Shown here: piece by piece, positions 4,159 through 8,074 of the stretch
How the letters are laid out: every line of letters begins with the position of its first letter
Position numbering within the stretch: position 1 is the first letter of the stretch
From: a virus
Length of the DNA: 64,000 nucleotides
IMG/VR virus record: IMGVR_UViG_3300037840_000188
Coordinates: 76,996 to 140,995 of that record
Strand: one strand, 5' to 3'
Translations under genes and position numbers: made by a program
The notes under the pieces: generated by a model
Seen by the model: only the letters and a program-made list of their open reading frames with translations
Told to the model about the DNA's origin: nothing
Databases searched by the model: none

Positions 4159-4503
4159 CTACCGCCCGGTTTTCGCCGGTGTGAGGCCGAGCTTGTTCTG
4201 GAGAGCCGCCATCTTCTTGACAGCTTCAGTCTTGCGCTCGCTCGTGGTCTTGTAACCCTCAAGCTCTGCTTCGATACGCTTCAGCTCTGCCATATCGGCA
4301 GCGCGAGTGCGACGGTCGATCTCATCACGCAGAACGGTGGTCGACTTCTCCAACCATTCCGGCGCGGAGATCTGAAGGTGGCCGTACTCATTCTCCAGAT
4401 TGCGCGCGTAGGCCGATAGCGTCACCGCTTCGTCCATATCAAGAACGCGATCCAGATTCAGATTCTTCAATGCCTGTAACATTGCTTTAATCCTTTCTAC
4501 CAC
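4159..4503 (-). CDS. Helical/coiled-coil hypothetical protein in Ro60-like operon
   Basis: 114 aa; begins 5 nt after the HNH stop. Confidence 0.6.
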   Translation of the reverse strand: MVERIKAMLQALKNLNLDRVLDMDEAVTLSAYARNLENEYGHLQISAPEWLEKSTTVLRDEIDRRTRAADMAELKRIEAELEGYKTTSERKTEAVKKMAALQNKLGLTPAKTGR

Positions 4504-4508
4504 GAAGC

Positions 4509-5102
4509 TCAGCGCGAGCGCGGCTTGGCAGTTATTTTTCGCAAATCATTCAAGCGCTCGACGAGCGCCTCGTTAGCCAGGTAAGTCTTGTAATTTATCT
4601 CATCCGGCTGATTTAGATAATGCATATCCGAGGAAACACGACCATATTCGGATGAGGCTATCCACGCCGAATATTCCATGCTCCCCCGAAGCTTATTACA
4701 GCGACGGCAGGCGCTAACTAGATTGTCCTCAGCCGTCGCCCCACCATCCTCCCAGAGAATTACGTGATCCACCGTTAATGGCTTTTCTTGACCACAGTAC
4801 CTACACCGAAAGTGATCTCTCCGAAAGACATTCCAGCTGACGAACTGATCTATCTGCCGCTGGCTCTTTCGAAGAATCGCCTTTCCCGGCCCTCGCACAT
4901 CGAGCACGTCGGACTGATTCAGGAAGCGCTCCCACTGAGCGGTGTCCATCACGAGCAGTTCGTGCTCGCCCGCGAGGTCTTCGTCTGGTAACGGGACGAG
5001 ATACACTTTCCCGTTACCAGTCCAGATCGCACCGCCGAGTTGAATCGTGTGGCCGACTTCGAGGATGTCGAGGTCGGCTAACGTCACCTGAGTGGCGGTC
5101 AT
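4509..5102 (-). CDS. HNH endonuclease with N-terminal extension
   Basis: RRDHFRCRYCG...LTVDHVILWEDGG...DNLVSACRRCN; ATGA overlap with the TROVE gene. Confidence 0.85.
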   Translation of the reverse strand: MTATQVTLADLDILEVGHTIQLGGAIWTGNGKVYLVPLPDEDLAGEHELLVMDTAQWERFLNQSDVLDVRGPGKAILRKSQRQIDQFVSWNVFRRDHFRCRYCGQEKPLTVDHVILWEDGGATAEDNLVSACRRCNKLRGSMEYSAWIASSEYGRVSSDMHYLNQPDEINYKTYLANEALVERLNDLRKITAKPRSR

Positions 5103-6619
5103 GCCGCCACCAACTCACGAACGCCGAGCACCTGATCGAGGGTCAACAGAGGGCACGACATGATCTTTTCAACGACACCAAACCGAGAGGCGTTCATCGA
5201 CTGTACGAGGTTTGGCAGCGCATAGTAGTCGGTCCCATTCGTCAGATCATATTCCGTGAACTGCAACCCAGCCGCTGCCATTGCGGCTCCAAACAGACGC
5301 GGACTTCCATTGCCCATCGCGTACCGAGCATCAACAAATGTCCGGTACAGGTAAACCGGAACCTGCTTGTCCGTCTGGCGCTTGAAATGTTGATACGCCG
5401 TCGCGAACATCGGGTGACTGTTCTCGCCTCCATCGCCCACGATTGCGATCCCATCGATATTAAGCTTCTTGTCGAGCGCCCAAGCGAGGCCAACGCCATA
5501 CGAAGTACCACCGCTGGCGAAGATGAACTTCGTCTGCCCTTTGATCTCGTCAAGCGTCTTGCCGGTTACCTCGATAGGAGTCACGTCCGTATTGCAGAAA
5601 ACAAGCCATACGCGGCCCGTCACAAACTTCGCAATAGCAGCACCGATGTGCGCTCCGAGTTCAATAGCCTGCTCCTGCGACTGGCTGCGATCCACGATCA
5701 CAAGCCAATCACCCTCAATCCCCCGCCCCGCATCCTTCTGAGCCTGAATCTGACGCTCCTGGAGTTCGCGAAGCATGGTCTTCAATCCCTTGTCCTCGAC
5801 TTCATCAGCCGCGACCGAGGTCTTGAGCGTTGCCTTATTGCTCTTCGTCGCCTTCGCAACTTTCTTTCGGAAGGTGTCCTTCAGCGCGGCATCTCGCGAG
5901 AGACCCTTCTTTTCGAGGCTCTTTGCCCGCGTCACGACCTCGGTATCGCTCATTTGGTCCATACCGGCCTGAACGACCTCTGAGGCCTGCTGCGTGGCCT
6001 TTGCGCCAGTCATGGCACCACTGACCACCAGTGGAGACAAATGCCACTTCTGGATCGTTGCAGCAACCTGTGCCGGGGTCATCTTCGAGAGATTCTTGAT
6101 GTCGGCGAAGATCGTACCCTGCGCCGGATTGCCGTTGAACAGCACATCCGCAGCGAAAGCTGGAATCTTCGCATGAGTCAGCGCGTACAGCGACTTCAAA
6201 CTGCGCCGGTGGCGAGCCGCGAGGCGGTTCCATTTGCCCGGCTCGGCAGCCTTGGCGTCGAGATAAGAATGGATCATCCGTTTGATCGCCGTATCGCGAC
6301 GGCGGGCCAAATTAAGTGTGGCCGAGAAGCGGAGCGCGCGAAGAATTTCGCGCGGCGACTGCATCGCCAGATGCGCCAGCGAGTTCTCGACAAGCTCATC
6401 GGGAAACTCACGCGTGGCCAGCGTGATCACTGGGAGAGCGATCTTTGTATCCTTTATTTGCCCGTTCGTGAAGTCAAAAGCGATTAAATGGGCGAGAAAT
6501 TCCGGGTCCTGACGGCAGGCTGCGCCGATCACGTTCTGATAGGCGGCGAGGTCTCCGTGAAGGGAAAGATTTAACTTCCCTACGATTTCGTTGCGCGTGA
6601 TTCCGAGTTCTTGTGACAT
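5099..6619 (-). CDS. Ro60/Rsr-like TROVE + vWA RNA-binding protein
   Basis: 506 aa. Helical N-terminal region with QDPEFLAHL...IKD..IALP (TROVE-like). C-terminal vWA MIDAS motifs VIVDRSQS, GGTSY, IVGDGGEN. Adjacent to tRNA-like RNAs. Confidence 0.75.
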   Translation of the reverse strand: MSQELGITRNEIVGKLNLSLHGDLAAYQNVIGAACRQDPEFLAHLIAFDFTNGQIKDTKIALPVITLATREFPDELVENSLAHLAMQSPREILRALRFSATLNLARRRDTAIKRMIHSYLDAKAAEPGKWNRLAARHRRSLKSLYALTHAKIPAFAADVLFNGNPAQGTIFADIKNLSKMTPAQVAATIQKWHLSPLVVSGAMTGAKATQQASEVVQAGMDQMSDTEVVTRAKSLEKKGLSRDAALKDTFRKKVAKATKSNKATLKTSVAADEVEDKGLKTMLRELQERQIQAQKDAGRGIEGDWLVIVDRSQSQEQAIELGAHIGAAIAKFVTGRVWLVFCNTDVTPIEVTGKTLDEIKGQTKFIFASGGTSYGVGLAWALDKKLNIDGIAIVGDGGENSHPMFATAYQHFKRQTDKQVPVYLYRTFVDARYAMGNGSPRLFGAAMAAAGLQFTEYDLTNGTDYYALPNLVQSMNASRFGVVEKIMSCPLLTLDQVLGVRELVAA

Positions 6620-6628
6620 AAAAATAAA

Positions 6629-6797
6629 GGGCGGCGTGTCGATGGACTGTTGCTTTTAGGCAATCACCAAATGATTGTGCCCCGCCGTGGAGCCTCTCCC
6701 CCGTAAGCGCTTTTCAGCAGTTTTATGGGTGGGGGAGGTCGGAATCGAACCGACTGTCTTCTTGCGAAGATGCGTGTAAGTCCGTCAGTTTCCGCCC
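6629..6797 (-). ncRNA. Y-RNA-like unit 1, tRNA module opened at the variable junction
   Basis: Closing GGGCGG/CCGCCC and ACUGACGGAC/GUCCAUCGACA. Inside, in order: hairpin UCUUC-GCAA-GAAGA, T arm GUCGG-UUCGAUU-CCGAC, acceptor CUCCCCC/GGGGGAG, D-like arm GCUC/GGGC, anticodon-like arm CAAUC-AUUUGGU-GAUUG. Confidence 0.75.
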
Positions 6798-6833
6798 TAA
6801 CTTAGTGCCTCAATAAAACGGAGGCGAAATCAA

Positions 6834-7000
6834 AGGAAGCCATGTCGATGCGCTTTGCTGTTATTGGCAAGTCATGCGCTCTACCGCTGAGCTAATCGCT
6901 CACTGGTGAAATCGTTTCCGACTAGTCGACCAGTGAACGATTCTGGATTTGAACCAGAGACCTCATGAATTAAACGTGTATGCGCGTCAGTTTGCTTCCT
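6834..7000 (-). ncRNA. Y-RNA-like unit 2, YrlA-type architecture (opened at the anticodon loop)
   Basis: Closing AGGAAGC/GCUUCCU and ACUGACGCGC/GCGCAUCGACA. Inside: UCAUG, AGGUC, T arm UCUGG-UUCAAAU-CCAGA, acceptor AUCGUUC/GAGCGAU extended by ACUGGU/ACCAGU, D arm UA-GCUC-AGCGGUA-GAGC, CAUGA. Confidence 0.8.
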
Positions 7001-7040
7001 GTCTCGATGAAAGCCGCGTCGTCAGACTCTCGAACTTATT

Positions 7041-7160
7041 CCCGGCATGTCGATGCGCGTTGATCCCTTACGGGAACGGTTGGAGTTGAACCAACTACCT
7101 AAAGCGTTGAAGGCTTTTGCTCTACCAAATGAGCTACGTGTAAGCGCGTCAGTGTCCGGG
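7041..7160 (-). ncRNA. Y-RNA-like unit 3, tRNA arms in normal order, acceptor stem replaced by the conserved helix, anticodon UCA
   Basis: Closing CCCGG/CCGGG and ACUGACGCGC/GCGCAUCGACA. D arm UA-GCUC-AUUUGGUA-GAGC, anticodon arm AAAGC-CUUCAAC-GCUUU, T arm GUUGG-UUCAACU-CCAAC, only a 3-bp acceptor remnant, then UCCC-GUAA-GGGA. Confidence 0.8.
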
Positions 7161-7190: not shown

Positions 7191-7221
7191 AGACTACCAC
7201 ATTACCCATGTTACCTGTCAA
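7191..7221 (-). promoter_or_regulatory. Putative sigma70 promoter for the Y-like RNA / Ro60 operon
   Basis: TTGACA-19 nt-TAGTCT with TGn extension and AT-rich sequence upstream; the spacer is long. Confidence 0.45.
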
Positions 7222-7241: not shown

Positions 7242-7730
7242 TCAGACCTTAACAGTCAGCACCGGATCTGAATAAGCCTGATCCAGAATCTTCGTCTCCT
7301 GAATGGGCGACCCGACATTCGTCAGCAGCTCCCGCTCCGCCGTAGCCGACCCCTTATCGAAGTGCGACGCCTCATGTACGAGCCCGGTCTTACGCTCGAA
7401 GTCGTTCCGCTTCTGATGGGTGTCAAGCTCGACGCGCTCATATCCCTGCCGCCGGTAGACTTCAGGCATCTGAAGATCGGCACGTGCGGGAATGCGGCGC
7501 TCGCCGGTGCGGGGGTTCATATACACCACGGCGCGTTCGGATGGGTGGATCGAGGAGATGCGGCTTCCACCGTGGGGGGCCGTATGTCCGTGCTTCCCGG
7601 ATTCATCCTGGCAATATGGCCAGGACCCTACCGGGCGCGGTCGGCCACATGAAGGACACAGATCAACAACACCAGCAGGAGCAGGGGGAGATTCTCGCGA
7701 TTGAGCAGAAATTTCATTGACGGAAGTCAT
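7242..7730 (-). CDS. Hypothetical protein with CxxC
   Basis: ORF 7242..7766; likely start ATG 7730; CPSCG...WPYC...HGH. Confidence 0.55.
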   Translation of the reverse strand: MTSVNEISAQSRESPPAPAGVVDLCPSCGRPRPVGSWPYCQDESGKHGHTAPHGGSRISSIHPSERAVVYMNPRTGERRIPARADLQMPEVYRRQGYERVELDTHQKRNDFERKTGLVHEASHFDKGSATAERELLTNVGSPIQETKILDQAYSDPVLTVKV

Positions 7731-8074
7731 TAGATTAGCACGCACACTTCCCAAACCTCTCCGCACACCGACACAGATTGCACCTGCAATCCCGAGATCG
7801 CGCTATCCACGGCGACATCAGGATGGCGCTGAAGAGCAACGCAAGACCGAGGAGAGCAAGTAACGTGGGGCGAGTCAGGGTCATGTCCGCGAAGGCGTAA
7901 GCCGCCCGGTGACCACGGCAAATGCCGCTAGATCGTCCTCGTCTTTGATCGAGACGTTCACGCCGCCGAGGTCCACATCCATGTAATCTTTCTTCGTTAC
8001 TGGATCGATCTGCGGGGAGACCCGTACGACTTGATCGAGATTCAGGAGTTGGCCGGTTTTTAGCTTAAAGAGGG

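What the first reader, a model, noticed from the sequence alone, without database searches (positions are those of the whole stretch)
6629..7160. Three different circular permutations of the tRNA cloverleaf on one scaffold
Seen: unit 3 runs D-anticodon-T and is opened at the acceptor stem. Unit 2 runs T-acceptor-D and is opened at the anticodon loop, as in YrlA. Unit 1 runs variable arm-T-acceptor-D-anticodon and is opened at the variable junction. I know only the unit 2 topology from described Y RNAs. Inference: the scaffold is a modular handle that exposes different tRNA faces. Alternatively it is a processing or ligation signal, as in the permuted tRNA genes of algae and archaea; unit 1 has A-CC-C-A right after its acceptor strand.
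Basis: partly seen in the sequence, partly recalled or inferred. Interest (0 to 1): 0.85.

Follow-up and report, generated by a model that had tools for sequence, protein, structure and literature searches.

The report
Three rotated tRNA mimics, one handle
A soil phage encodes, just upstream of a gene for a Ro60-shaped RNA-binding protein, three small RNAs that share one conserved "handle" but each carry a tRNA look-alike written in a different rotated order; only one of these orders was clearly described for such RNAs, and related phages keep all three.

Summary
It lies on the minus strand, 7160 to 6629, in the 622-base gap before ORF 5099-6619(-).

- **The three units.** They share a closing stem (5' CUGACGSRCWUACACG, 3' CAUCGACAYG).
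  - Unit A (7160-7041) runs D-anticodon-T, and a GUAA-capped hairpin completes its acceptor helix.
  - Unit B (6999-6835) runs T-acceptor-D, as in YrlA.
  - Unit C (6797-6629) runs variable hairpin-T-acceptor-D-anticodon.
- **Structure support.** RNAalifold recovers each order from relatives (40, 7 and 23 units). 90-97% of cells pair, against 30-49% when partners are slid.
- **Re-permutation.** ARAGORN calls no native B or C unit. It and 17/23 after in-silico re-permutation.
- **Conservation.** Six related phage loci also hold all three types.
- **The neighbouring protein.** Pfam does not recognise it, but it folds as Ro60 (TROVE ring plus vWA).

My best reading is a phage array of Y-RNA-like partners of a divergent Ro60-like protein, with the tRNA mimic attached to the handle at three different junctions. 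Binding, expression and function are inferred, not shown.

A ligation pathway yielding real tRNAs is unlikely. RNase P-type opening of acceptor loops remains possible, because NCCA is enriched there.

This is a new variant of a known kind. The scan has noted similar handle RNAs beside Ro60-like genes in other phages.

The parts
7191..7221 (-). Putative sigma-70-type promoter: TTGACA (7221-7216), 19-nt spacer, TAGTCT (7196-7191)
   Evidence: Read. Related arrays carry TTGACA-N16-19-TAnnnT at the same place. The consensus scan did not call it, so it remains putative.
7041..7160 (-). The acceptor is ACG/CGU capped by hairpin 7075-7064 (GUAA loop).
   Evidence: Rfam tRNA 51.8 bits. Model R1 116.1 bits. 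Alignment A2 of 40 units: 90.0% of cells paired, covariation 0.649 against 0.08-0.14 when slid. Cap hairpin statistics.
6835..6999 (-). Anticodon-stem 3' strand 6968-6964, T arm 6958-6942, closed acceptor 6941-6895, D arm 6892-6878, anticodon-stem 5' strand 6876-6872, extra hairpin 6871-6853.
   Evidence: YrlA RF02553 over its full length at 27.2 bits. RNAalifold on 7 units recovers this order. 97.2% of cells paired, with 4 of 5 anticodon-stem pairs compensatory. R3 156.7 bits. ARAGORN 7/7 after re-permutation.
6629..6797 (-).
   Evidence: tmRNA_permuted partial match 29.9 bits. RNAalifold on 23 units. 96.1% of cells paired, covariation 0.812. R2 102.9 bits. ARAGORN calls a tRNA after re-permutation.
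7137..7152 (-). Handle 5' box of unit A (CUGACGCGCUUACACG). The same box lies at 6975-6990 (unit B) and 6773-6788 (unit C).
   Evidence: Exact pattern matches occur only at these three places in the window. UACAYG is invariant in A2, A4 and A5.
7046..7055 (-). Handle 3' box of unit A (CAUCGACAUG). The same box lies at 6841-6850 (unit B) and 6635-6644 (unit C).
   Evidence: It pairs with the 5' box as UGR/YCG plus a 4-bp helix with compensatory changes.
5099..6619 (-). Gene for a 506-aa divergent Ro60-like protein (helical ring plus vWA domain with an intact MIDAS motif). Its start codon lies 10 nt after unit C.
   Evidence: AlphaFold2 model with pLDDT 83.4. The top 12 Foldseek PDB entries listed are all Ro60/TROVE, E 1.7e-9 to 4.5e-6, aligned over the full length. 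Pfam TROVE gives no hit. DxSxS..T..D is invariant.
4509..5102 (-). HNH endonuclease gene that overlaps the end of the Ro60-like gene
   Evidence: Pfam HNH 9.6e-13. The same neighbour is present in L083-L087 and L091.

Best explanation
The three units are Y-RNA-like small RNAs of a phage. They are probably transcribed from one promoter together with the downstream gene for a very divergent Ro60-like ring protein, and are probably that protein's RNA partners.

Each RNA has two modules:
- **A constant handle.** The outer helix is followed by an internal loop, a UGR/YCG helix, a bulge and a 4-5-bp helix, then the invariant UACAYG. This handle is the likely protein-binding site.
- **A tRNA-shaped body.** It has a closed acceptor end, so it cannot be charged as it stands.

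The body is one cloverleaf joined to the handle at three different points:
- inside the 5' strand of the acceptor stem (A);
- at the anticodon loop (B, the YrlA arrangement);
- between the anticodon arm and the variable region (C).

On the ring, the L-shaped mimic would therefore project in three different orientations. A leaves the anticodon loop and elbow free. B leaves the acceptor end and elbow free. C leaves both tips free.

I infer that the mimics tether or titrate tRNA-binding proteins (modification enzymes, nucleases, RNase P/Z, or host anti-phage tRNA nucleases). This follows the known role of Y RNAs in tethering Ro60 to an effector.

Shown here: the three folds, their conservation, and their linkage to a Ro60-fold gene. 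Inferred: transcription, processing, protein binding and the effector role.
For: - **The three orders are real.** Each is recovered by RNAalifold from relatives and carries many compensatory changes. Against shuffles, 0/500 reach the observed values, and slid controls drop to 30-49% pairing.
- **The handle helices covary too** (helices 2 and 3, helix 1).
- **The downstream protein has the Ro60 fold.** The top 12 PDB entries listed by Foldseek include Thermus phage phiLo Ro60, D. radiodurans Rsr and Xenopus Ro60 with RNA.
- **The pairing recurs.** Type A units scoring 70 bits or more lie upstream of the homologous gene in 58 of 69 sources searched. Seven arrays hold A+B+C: the window, L083, L084, L085, L090, L010 and L012. 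Protein identity to the window among these runs from 87% down to 57%.
- **Published precedent.**
  - YrlA RNAs lie next to rsr on the same strand, mimic tRNA and are called circularly permuted (PMC4201824; 10.1101/312249).
  - Phage phiLo encodes two Y-like RNAs upstream of its Ro60 gene, and they bind it (PMC12135203).
- **Signs that these are mimics, not decoders.**
  - The anticodon differs between orthologous units.
  - One relative replaces the anticodon loop with a GAAA tetraloop (L089).
  - The phage has 23 ordinary tRNAs elsewhere.
Against: - There is no expression or end-mapping data.
- The protein is not recognised by Pfam TROVE. A sequence profile barely reaches phiLo Ro60 (E 0.9). 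The Ro60 assignment therefore rests on a predicted fold with TM about 0.55-0.59.
- The YrlA motif GNCGAAN0-1G is absent from the 5' strand. The nearest look-alike, AYCGAY, sits on the 3' strand. Unit B scores only 27.2 bits on the YrlA model, little above tandem tRNA pairs at 21.1 bits.
- The phage has no RtcB, CCA-adding enzyme or RNA ligase by Pfam, so no effector can be named.
- Type B was found only in the closest clade (7 units). Its covariation therefore rests on few and related sequences.
Confidence: 0.6

Rival explanations
1. The units are circularly permuted tRNA genes. The handle is cut out and the ends ligated, and the acceptor loop is opened by RNase P/Z. This would yield working tRNAs, as in Cyanidioschyzon merolae.
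For: - Re-permuted B and C units are called as tRNAs by ARAGORN.
- NCCA follows the acceptor 3' strand far more often than chance: 16/64, plus 10 with NCC.
- Many acceptor stems are 7 bp.
- 10.1101/312249 raises this possibility for YrlA.
Against: - The handle is not a bulge-helix-bulge motif, and no splicing endonuclease or RtcB is encoded.
- Unit A's acceptor end is sealed by a GNRA tetraloop without CCA.
- Unit B has no anticodon loop.
- Anticodons are not conserved between orthologous units.
- Window unit C lacks U8 and A14, and has ACCCA rather than ACCA.
- L089 has a tetraloop where the anticodon should be.
Confidence: 0.07
2. The array is chiefly a cis-acting leader of the Ro60-like mRNA. 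The protein binds the handle next to its own start codon and represses its own translation. On this view the tRNA-like parts are secondary.
For: - The start codon lies about 10 nt after the last handle, with no Shine-Dalgarno sequence. This holds in the window and in close relatives, whichever unit type comes last.
- No terminator separates the array from the gene.
Against: - This does not explain why two to eight units are kept.
- It does not explain why the tRNA-like helices covary so strongly.
- It does not exclude the main explanation.
Confidence: 0.1
3. The units are decaying remnants of tandem tRNA genes and have no function of their own.
For: - The phage has a large tRNA cluster.
- Windows slid over tandem tRNA repeats would give exactly such permuted orders. 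This is the dimeric-tRNA origin proposed in 10.1101/312249.
- NCCA in the acceptor loops fits that origin.
Against: - Compensatory changes keep every helix intact across phages whose proteins are only 36-87% identical.
- The handle is conserved.
- The position next to one gene family is fixed.
Confidence: 0.03

Closest known systems
YrlA, the tRNA-like Y RNA of bacteria and mycobacteriophages (Rfam RF02553; PMC4201824; 10.1101/312249)
   Same: - It is encoded beside a Ro60-type gene on the same strand.
- It has a two-module design, with a closing stem plus a tRNA-like domain whose acceptor stem is closed.
- Unit B has the same T-acceptor-D order, with the anticodon stem formed by the two ends.
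   Different: - Units A and C have other orders.
- The handle lacks GNCGAAN0-1G on the 5' strand and instead has UACAYG (5') and AYCGAY (3').
- Unit B scores 27.2 bits against a gathering score of 69.
- The partner protein is not detected by Pfam TROVE.
Deinococcus radiodurans Yrn1 (PMC4201824)
   Same: It is a Y RNA in which the T arm and a D-like region stand in the opposite order to YrlA, with an anticodon-like arm between them. This is a partial precedent for unit A. It is made as part of a polycistronic precursor.
   Different: - Yrn1's tRNA likeness is weak: there is no clear D arm, the loop is 6 nt, and there is no variable arm.
- Unit A passes the Rfam tRNA threshold and has a tetraloop-capped acceptor.
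Thermus phage phiLo Ro60 with Yrl1/Yrl2 (PMC12135203; PDB 9KOP, 9L5Y)
   Same: A phage Ro60 homologue with Y-like RNAs encoded upstream of its gene. It is the best structural match to the window's protein.
   Different: The phiLo RNAs are described as stem-bulge-stem with a CGAA motif, not as tRNA mimics in several orders. Protein sequence similarity is near zero.
Circularly permuted tRNA genes of Cyanidioschyzon merolae and some archaea (as summarised in 10.1101/312249)
   Same: The 3' half precedes the 5' half, the acceptor is closed by a loop, and breakpoints occur at several positions of the cloverleaf.
   Different: Those are matured to working tRNAs through a bulge-helix-bulge motif and ligation. 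Here no such motif or enzyme is seen, and the anticodons are not conserved.
Two-piece (permuted) tmRNA (Rfam RF04321)
   Same: It has the layout T arm - acceptor 3' strand - CCA - spacer - acceptor 5' strand. This is why unit C gives a partial match.
   Different: Unit C has no tag reading frame or pseudoknots, and the score is below threshold (29.9 against 47).
'Clamp helix + ACAGCAA' handle RNAs beside DUF2828 Ro60-like genes in other phages and giant viruses
   Same: These are small RNAs in arrays with one constant handle and interchangeable tRNA-like cargo, next to a Ro60-shaped protein gene. A conserved ACA-containing motif follows directly after the 5' strand of the clamp helix.
   Different: The motif here is UACAYG, not ACAGCAA. 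The protein hits neither DUF2828 nor TROVE. I did not compare the two RNA families directly.

Membership tests
YrlA (Rfam RF02553) | Reaches the family's gathering score on the covariance model | tested here: not met
   Unit B scores 27.2 bits against 69, aligned over model positions 1-114. Units A and C are not matched.
YrlA (Rfam RF02553) | T arm - closed acceptor stem - D arm order, with the anticodon stem formed by the 5' and 3' parts | tested here: met
   Met by unit B only. Units A and C have other orders.
YrlA (Rfam RF02553) | GNCGAAN0-1G motif near the 5' end (PMC4201824) | tested here: not met
   The 5' strand reads CUGACGSRCWUACACG. The only CGA-containing motif is AYCGAY on the 3' strand.
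YrlA (Rfam RF02553) | Encoded within a few kb of a Ro60 orthologue, on the same strand | tested here: met
   The array ends 10 nt before a gene whose product folds as Ro60. The same arrangement holds in relatives.
Y RNA in general | Bound by Ro60 through the closing stem | not testable with these tools
   This needs co-purification or a binding assay.
Ro60 / TROVE protein | Pfam TROVE (PF05731) match | tested here: not met
   No hit for the protein or for the whole phage. None of 30 relatives hits it.
Ro60 / TROVE protein | Helical-repeat ring followed by a vWA domain with a MIDAS motif | tested here: met
   The predicted fold aligns over its full length with Ro60 structures, E down to 1.7e-9 and TM 0.53-0.59. 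D310, S312, S314, T372 and D396 are invariant. 10 of 30 relatives hit VWA families, and 5 hit vWA_Ro60 weakly.
Functional tRNA | Free 5' and 3' ends on a 7-bp acceptor stem with a CCA end, and detection by tRNA finders | tested here: not met
   ARAGORN finds no tRNA in the window. All three acceptor ends are closed by loops.
Permuted tRNA genes (algal/archaeal type) | Re-permuted sequence gives a canonical cloverleaf | tested here: met
   ARAGORN B units (with a supplied loop) and 17/23 C units. It of the native forms.
Permuted tRNA genes (algal/archaeal type) | Bulge-helix-bulge motif at the joined termini, and a conserved anticodon identity | tested here: not met
   The handle has one internal loop and one single-base bulge, not 3-nt bulges four pairs apart. 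Anticodons vary between orthologous units.

The most novel reading that the evidence does not exclude
A widespread and undescribed clade of phage Ro60-like particles uses circular permutation as a design principle. One handle carries the same tRNA shape attached at three points, and at four or more in relatives. The particle thereby offers every face of a tRNA at once.

This could serve as a broad decoy or trap for host enzymes that attack tRNAs during phage defence, such as anticodon nucleases and acceptor-end nucleases. The coupled HNH nuclease might be the effector.

A bolder sub-case: the NCCA-bearing acceptor loops are opened by RNase P, giving two-piece, chargeable tRNA-like Y RNAs.
Probability: 0.15. 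Interest if true: 0.85.

Novelty: new variant of a known kind. Interest (0 to 1): 0.62.

Why it matters
Y RNAs are thought to steer Ro60 by tethering it to other proteins, but what the tRNA-like domain of bacterial Y RNAs recognises is still unknown.

- **A natural experiment.** One array presents the same tRNA shape in three orientations, and each is conserved with its own covariation. Whatever binds these mimics must see different parts of the L-shape. Pull-downs with units A, B and C could therefore separate elbow, anticodon and acceptor binders.
- **A wider family.** Ro60-like proteins in phages extend well beyond what Pfam TROVE detects: 392 relatives were found at E of 0.001 or lower in one search.
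- **Annotation.** Permuted tRNA look-alikes near such genes should not be annotated as broken tRNAs.
- **Origin.** The NCCA-bearing acceptor loops support the idea that such RNAs arose from tandem tRNA genes.

Tried and rejected
- **ARAGORN on the native window.** It finds no tRNA or tmRNA, as expected for closed or permuted forms.
- **Rfam at gathering thresholds.** It finds only the tRNA match in unit A. At E up to 10 it adds only a partial permuted-tmRNA match.
- **BLASTN of the array against 50,697 phage records.** It returns only short hits to ordinary tRNA genes and no homologous array.
- **The promoter/terminator scan.** It calls no promoter, and the terminator-like sites lie on the wrong strand.
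- **Pfam, PHROGs and PDB sequence searches.** They give nothing for the 506-aa protein. A profile of 30 relatives reaches phiLo Ro60 only at E 0.9.
- **My regex finder for handle pairs.** It was noisy and incomplete, so I replaced it with curated alignments and covariance models.
- **The metagenome scan.** It gave only 7 loci. One look-up (P0008) returned no DNA.
- **Sequencing runs.** No RNA holder is listed.
- **RNA-repair genes in this phage.** No RtcB, CCA-adding enzyme, LigT-like ligase, Rnl ligase or RlaP was found.
- **Literature searches.** No paper describes several tRNA permutations on one Y-RNA scaffold.
- **Readings considered and rejected.** Terminase for the 506-aa ORF: the fold says Ro60. 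CRISPR-like or retron-like repeats: the units are tRNA-shaped and have no spacers.
Full report
**Setting**

The window is the last 64 kb of a 140,995-base IMG/VR phage record that CheckV rates as complete. The record comes from soil metagenomes. ARAGORN finds 23 ordinary tRNA genes at genome positions 52.6-62.0 kb, all outside the window, and none inside it.

The finding lies on the minus strand, in a 622-base gene-free gap. The gap runs from the stop of ORF 7242-7766(-) to the ATG at 6619 of a 506-aa ORF, 5099-6619(-). An overlapping HNH endonuclease gene follows at 4509-5102(-). A portal gene lies further downstream.

**The observation**

Read 5' to 3' on the minus strand, the region holds three units. 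Each is closed by the same pair of boxes: CUGACGSRCWUACACG on the 5' side and CAUCGACAYG on the 3' side. Exact copies of the 5' box occur only at these three places in the window.

- **Unit A (7160-7041).** It carries a D arm, an anticodon arm (loop CUUCAAC), a 5-nt variable loop and a T arm in normal order.
  - The Rfam tRNA model matches 7139-7076 at 51.8 bits, against a threshold of 29, covering model positions 5-66.
  - Its acceptor helix is only ACG/CGU, but the next bases form the hairpin UCCC-GUAA-GGGA. Together these give 3+4 = 7 stacked pairs.
  - Unit A is therefore also a permutation. The natural ends are sealed by a tetraloop, and the chain is opened inside the 5' strand of the acceptor stem.
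- **Unit B (6999-6835).** It runs T arm, a 12-bp closed acceptor helix, then D arm.
  - UCAUG before the variable loop pairs with CAUGA just after the D arm. This is the YrlA arrangement.
  - The YrlA model aligns over its whole length, but only at 27.2 bits against a gathering score of 69.
- **Unit C (6797-6629).** It runs variable hairpin, T arm, acceptor 3' strand CUCCCCC followed by ACCCA, a 23-nt loop, acceptor 5' strand GGGGGAG, D arm and a 5-bp/7-nt anticodon arm.
  - Its T-acceptor part gives a partial match to permuted tmRNA.

**More than chance: relatives**

The 506-aa protein has 392 relatives at E of 0.001 or lower in the large protein collection. I fetched:
- 66 related loci from IMG/VR;
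- 7 from JGI metagenomes;
- 9 by exact-protein look-up.

Most carry two to eight tRNA-like units just upstream of the gene, on the same strand.

I aligned 40 normal-order units (A2), 7 YrlA-order units (A4) and 23 T-acceptor-D-anticodon units (A5). RNAalifold, given no hint, returned the handle plus the expected arms in the expected order for each set. Compensatory changes were seen in 21 of 23, 16 of 31 and 22 of 24 predicted pairs.

| Unit type | Alignment | Cells forming standard pairs | Same, partners slid 1-3 columns | Covariation score | Score when slid |
|---|---|---|---|---|---|
| A | A2 | 90.0% | 34.9-41.0% | 0.649 | 0.08-0.14 |
| B | A4 | 97.2% | 32.7-44.7% | 0.594 | 0.03-0.16 |
| C | A5 | 96.1% | 29.6-49.4% | 0.812 | 0.06-0.15 |

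No shuffle out of 500 reached the observed values in any set. In type B, the five-pair anticodon-stem analogue differs in sequence between units yet stays complementary in 34 of its 35 cells.

**More than chance: re-permutation**

- ARAGORN calls none of the 23 native C units. It of them once the acceptor loop is cut and the handle removed. The window's unit is among these, called as 'tRNA-Gln(ttg)'.
- It calls none of the 7 native B units, and all 7 after re-permutation with a supplied 7-nt loop.

**Distinctness and spread**

I built covariance models for the three orders and searched 69 sources.

| Window unit | Own model | Other models |
|---|---|---|
| A | 116.1 bits on R1 | none listed |
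| B | 156.7 bits on R3 | 60.1 on R2 |
| C | 102.9 bits on R2 | 64.1 on R3 |

The window units were part of the seed alignments, so these scores show distinctness, not discovery. Many units outside the seeds score above 90 bits on R1.

- Type A units scoring 70 bits or more occur in 58 of the 69 sources.
- Type C occurs in 22 sources.
- Type B above 100 bits occurs only in seven arrays: the window, L083, L084, L085, L090, L010 and L012.
- All seven hold A, B and C. Their proteins are 87% to 57% identical to the window's. In L010 the order along the array is reversed.

The trio is therefore older than the divergence of these phages. It is not a quirk of one genome.

**The neighbouring protein**

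Pfam, PHROGs and PDB sequence searches give nothing, and the whole phage has no TROVE match.

An AlphaFold2 model built on 30 relatives has a mean pLDDT of 83.4. It shows a long helical-repeat region followed by an alpha/beta domain. Foldseek against the PDB returns Ro60 for the top 12 entries listed, aligned over the full length at E 1.7e-9 to 4.5e-6 and TM 0.53-0.59. These include:
- the Thermus phage phiLo Ro60 (9KOP, 9L5Y);
- D. radiodurans Rsr (2NVO);
- human and Xenopus Ro60, including complexes with RNA.

Only vWA domains come after them.

The residues of a MIDAS motif (D310, S312, S314, T372, D396) are invariant in the family. Ten of 30 relatives hit VWA families and five hit vWA_Ro60 weakly.

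I accept it as a very divergent Ro60-like protein at the level of fold. A sequence profile reaches phiLo Ro60 only at E 0.9.

**What is known**

- Chen et al. (PMC4201824) found YrlA RNAs next to rsr in 254 bacteria and 22 phages.
  - They showed that these mimic tRNA.
  - They noted that D. radiodurans Yrn1 has its T and D-like parts in the opposite order, with an anticodon-like arm between them.
  - They showed that M. smegmatis YrlA is cut by RNase P and receives CCA.
- The YrlA crystal-structure paper (10.1101/312249) calls YrlA a circularly permuted tRNA with a closed acceptor stem. It proposes an origin from a dimeric tRNA.
- The phiLo paper (PMC12135203) reports two Y-like RNAs upstream of a phage Ro60 gene. 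These bind it, and together they bind host PNPase.

I found no paper describing several permutations of the cloverleaf on one scaffold, or arrays of this kind.

Earlier notes of this scan report 'clamp helix + ACAGCAA' handle RNAs with interchangeable tRNA-like cargo beside DUF2828 Ro60-like genes in other phages and giant viruses. The present handle has UACAYG at the equivalent place, and the protein hits neither DUF2828 nor TROVE. This looks like a sister of that family, but I did not test the relation directly.

**Most likely mechanism**

- **Transcription.** A conserved TTGACA-N16-19-TAnnnT element precedes the arrays, and no terminator separates the array from the gene. I infer one transcript from which the units are cut, as for the Yrn2-tRNA-Yrn1 precursor in D. 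radiodurans.
- **The handle.** Its two helices covary, and it has an invariant internal loop, a bulge and UACAYG. It is the constant part and the likely protein-binding site.
- **The tRNA-shaped body.** It is the variable part. Its YG-proximal helix always stacks on the handle, but that helix is the acceptor stem in A, the anticodon stem in B and the region next to the variable loop in C.
- **Consequence.** The L-shape would project from the ring in three orientations, each leaving different tips free.
- **Function.** By analogy with Y RNAs that tether Ro60 to PNPase, I infer that these mimics tether or titrate tRNA-binding proteins. I cannot name the partner.

The phage has no RtcB, CCA-adding enzyme or RNA ligase detectable by Pfam. 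Two relatives, however, have a LigT-like gene or an RlaP gene next to the array. The HNH gene and a gene of about 107 aa follow the Ro60-like gene in most close relatives.

**Rivals**

*Maturation to real tRNAs through excision and ligation.* This is unlikely, for these reasons:
- the handle is not a bulge-helix-bulge motif;
- A is sealed by a tetraloop without CCA;
- B has no anticodon loop;
- anticodons vary freely between orthologous units;
- a relative has GAAA in place of the anticodon loop;
- window unit C lacks U8 and A14.

- NCCA follows the acceptor 3' strand in 48 of 160 T arms.
- It also follows in 16 of 64 closed 7-bp acceptor hairpins, with NCC in 10 more. About 1 in 64 is expected by chance.
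- Many loops end in YUUAU just before the acceptor 5' strand, like a leader with U at position -1.
- This fits an origin from tandem tRNA genes. It leaves open RNase P-type opening of the loop, as in M. smegmatis.

*An autoregulatory leader.* The start codon sits about 10 nt after the last handle and has no Shine-Dalgarno sequence. This role is compatible with the main reading, but it does not explain the conserved tRNA shapes.

*Decay remnants.* The covariation excludes this.

**Verdict**

- The 'modular handle' interpretation is the best available, but it is unproven at the level of binding and function.
- The ligation alternative is weak.
- The system is a new variant of a known kind, Ro60 with tRNA-mimicking Y RNAs. 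It is notable for using at least three conserved circular permutations in one array, and for a protein clade that domain databases miss.

Noticed in passing
L026:1571-1699, L041:1351-1484, L043:2198-2320, L062:953-1086 and 21 more (alignment A6): Distant relatives hold a fourth order: a mini anticodon hairpin, then variable loop, T arm, closed 7-bp acceptor and D arm. The chain is opened between the D and anticodon arms. 21 of 25 units have a 3-4-bp stem plus a 7-nt loop (U at loop position 2 in 19) anchored on the last bases of UACAYG. Shuffles give a mean of 6.5 and a maximum of 14 in 1000.
   Followed up: partly
L077:733-863, L081:1-122, L089:1462-1592: A sub-form of the normal-order unit has a full 6-7-bp acceptor stem followed by NCCA inside the handle, like a tRNA precursor. 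In L089 the anticodon loop is replaced by a GAAA tetraloop, so this unit cannot decode.
   Followed up: partly
L027:1558-1640, L029:1638-1720, L035:1404-1480 and others: 'Half' units run anticodon arm - variable loop - T arm - acceptor 3' strand - NCCA, with no matching acceptor 5' strand or D arm nearby.
   Followed up: no
L090:~1387-1447, L054:2368-2440, L085:1173-1270: Minimal units have the handle but no tRNA-like body. They recall the hairpin-type second Y RNAs (YrlB, Yrn2) described in PMC4201824.
   Followed up: no
window 6703-6730 (-) and acceptor loops of relatives: Acceptor loops are strongly enriched for NCCA at their start, and many end in YUUAU just before the acceptor 5' strand. 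This is what a tRNA 3' end, spacer and 5' leader of tandem tRNA genes would leave behind.
   Followed up: partly
window 6619-6634 (-), and the same place in L010, L012, L077, L083-L091: The start codon of the Ro60-like gene always lies about 10 nt after the 3' strand of the last handle (GCCGCCC UUU.AUUU AUG), and there is no Shine-Dalgarno sequence. This holds whichever unit type comes last. It may reflect translational coupling or autoregulation.
   Followed up: no
window 7191-7221 (-), and upstream of the arrays in L010, L077, L083-L091: A conserved promoter-like element, TTGACA-N16-19-TAnnnT, has a spacer containing repeated GTTAC (GGTAAC in the window and L010).
   Followed up: no
window 6798-6834 and 7000-7040 (-), and spacers of relatives: Spacers between units repeatedly contain AAGUU(A/U)GG just before the next handle. 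This may be a processing site.
   Followed up: no
window 4509-5102 (-) and 4159-4503 (-); L083-L091: In most close relatives an HNH endonuclease gene and a gene of about 107 aa follow the Ro60-like gene, often with overlapping stop and start codons. L084 has a LigT-like 2',5' RNA ligase gene and L088 an RlaP gene beside the array.
   Followed up: partly
window 5099-6619 (-): This Ro60-like clade (392 relatives at E of 0.001 or lower) is invisible to Pfam TROVE and DUF2828. It keeps an intact MIDAS motif (D310, S312, S314, T372, D396).
   Followed up: partly
L011:1150-2400: One relative carries at least seven handle-bearing units in a row. Among them are two type A units, three type C units, a unit with two T arms, and what looks like a complete tRNA-Pro-like gene (about 2009-2088).
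   Followed up: no
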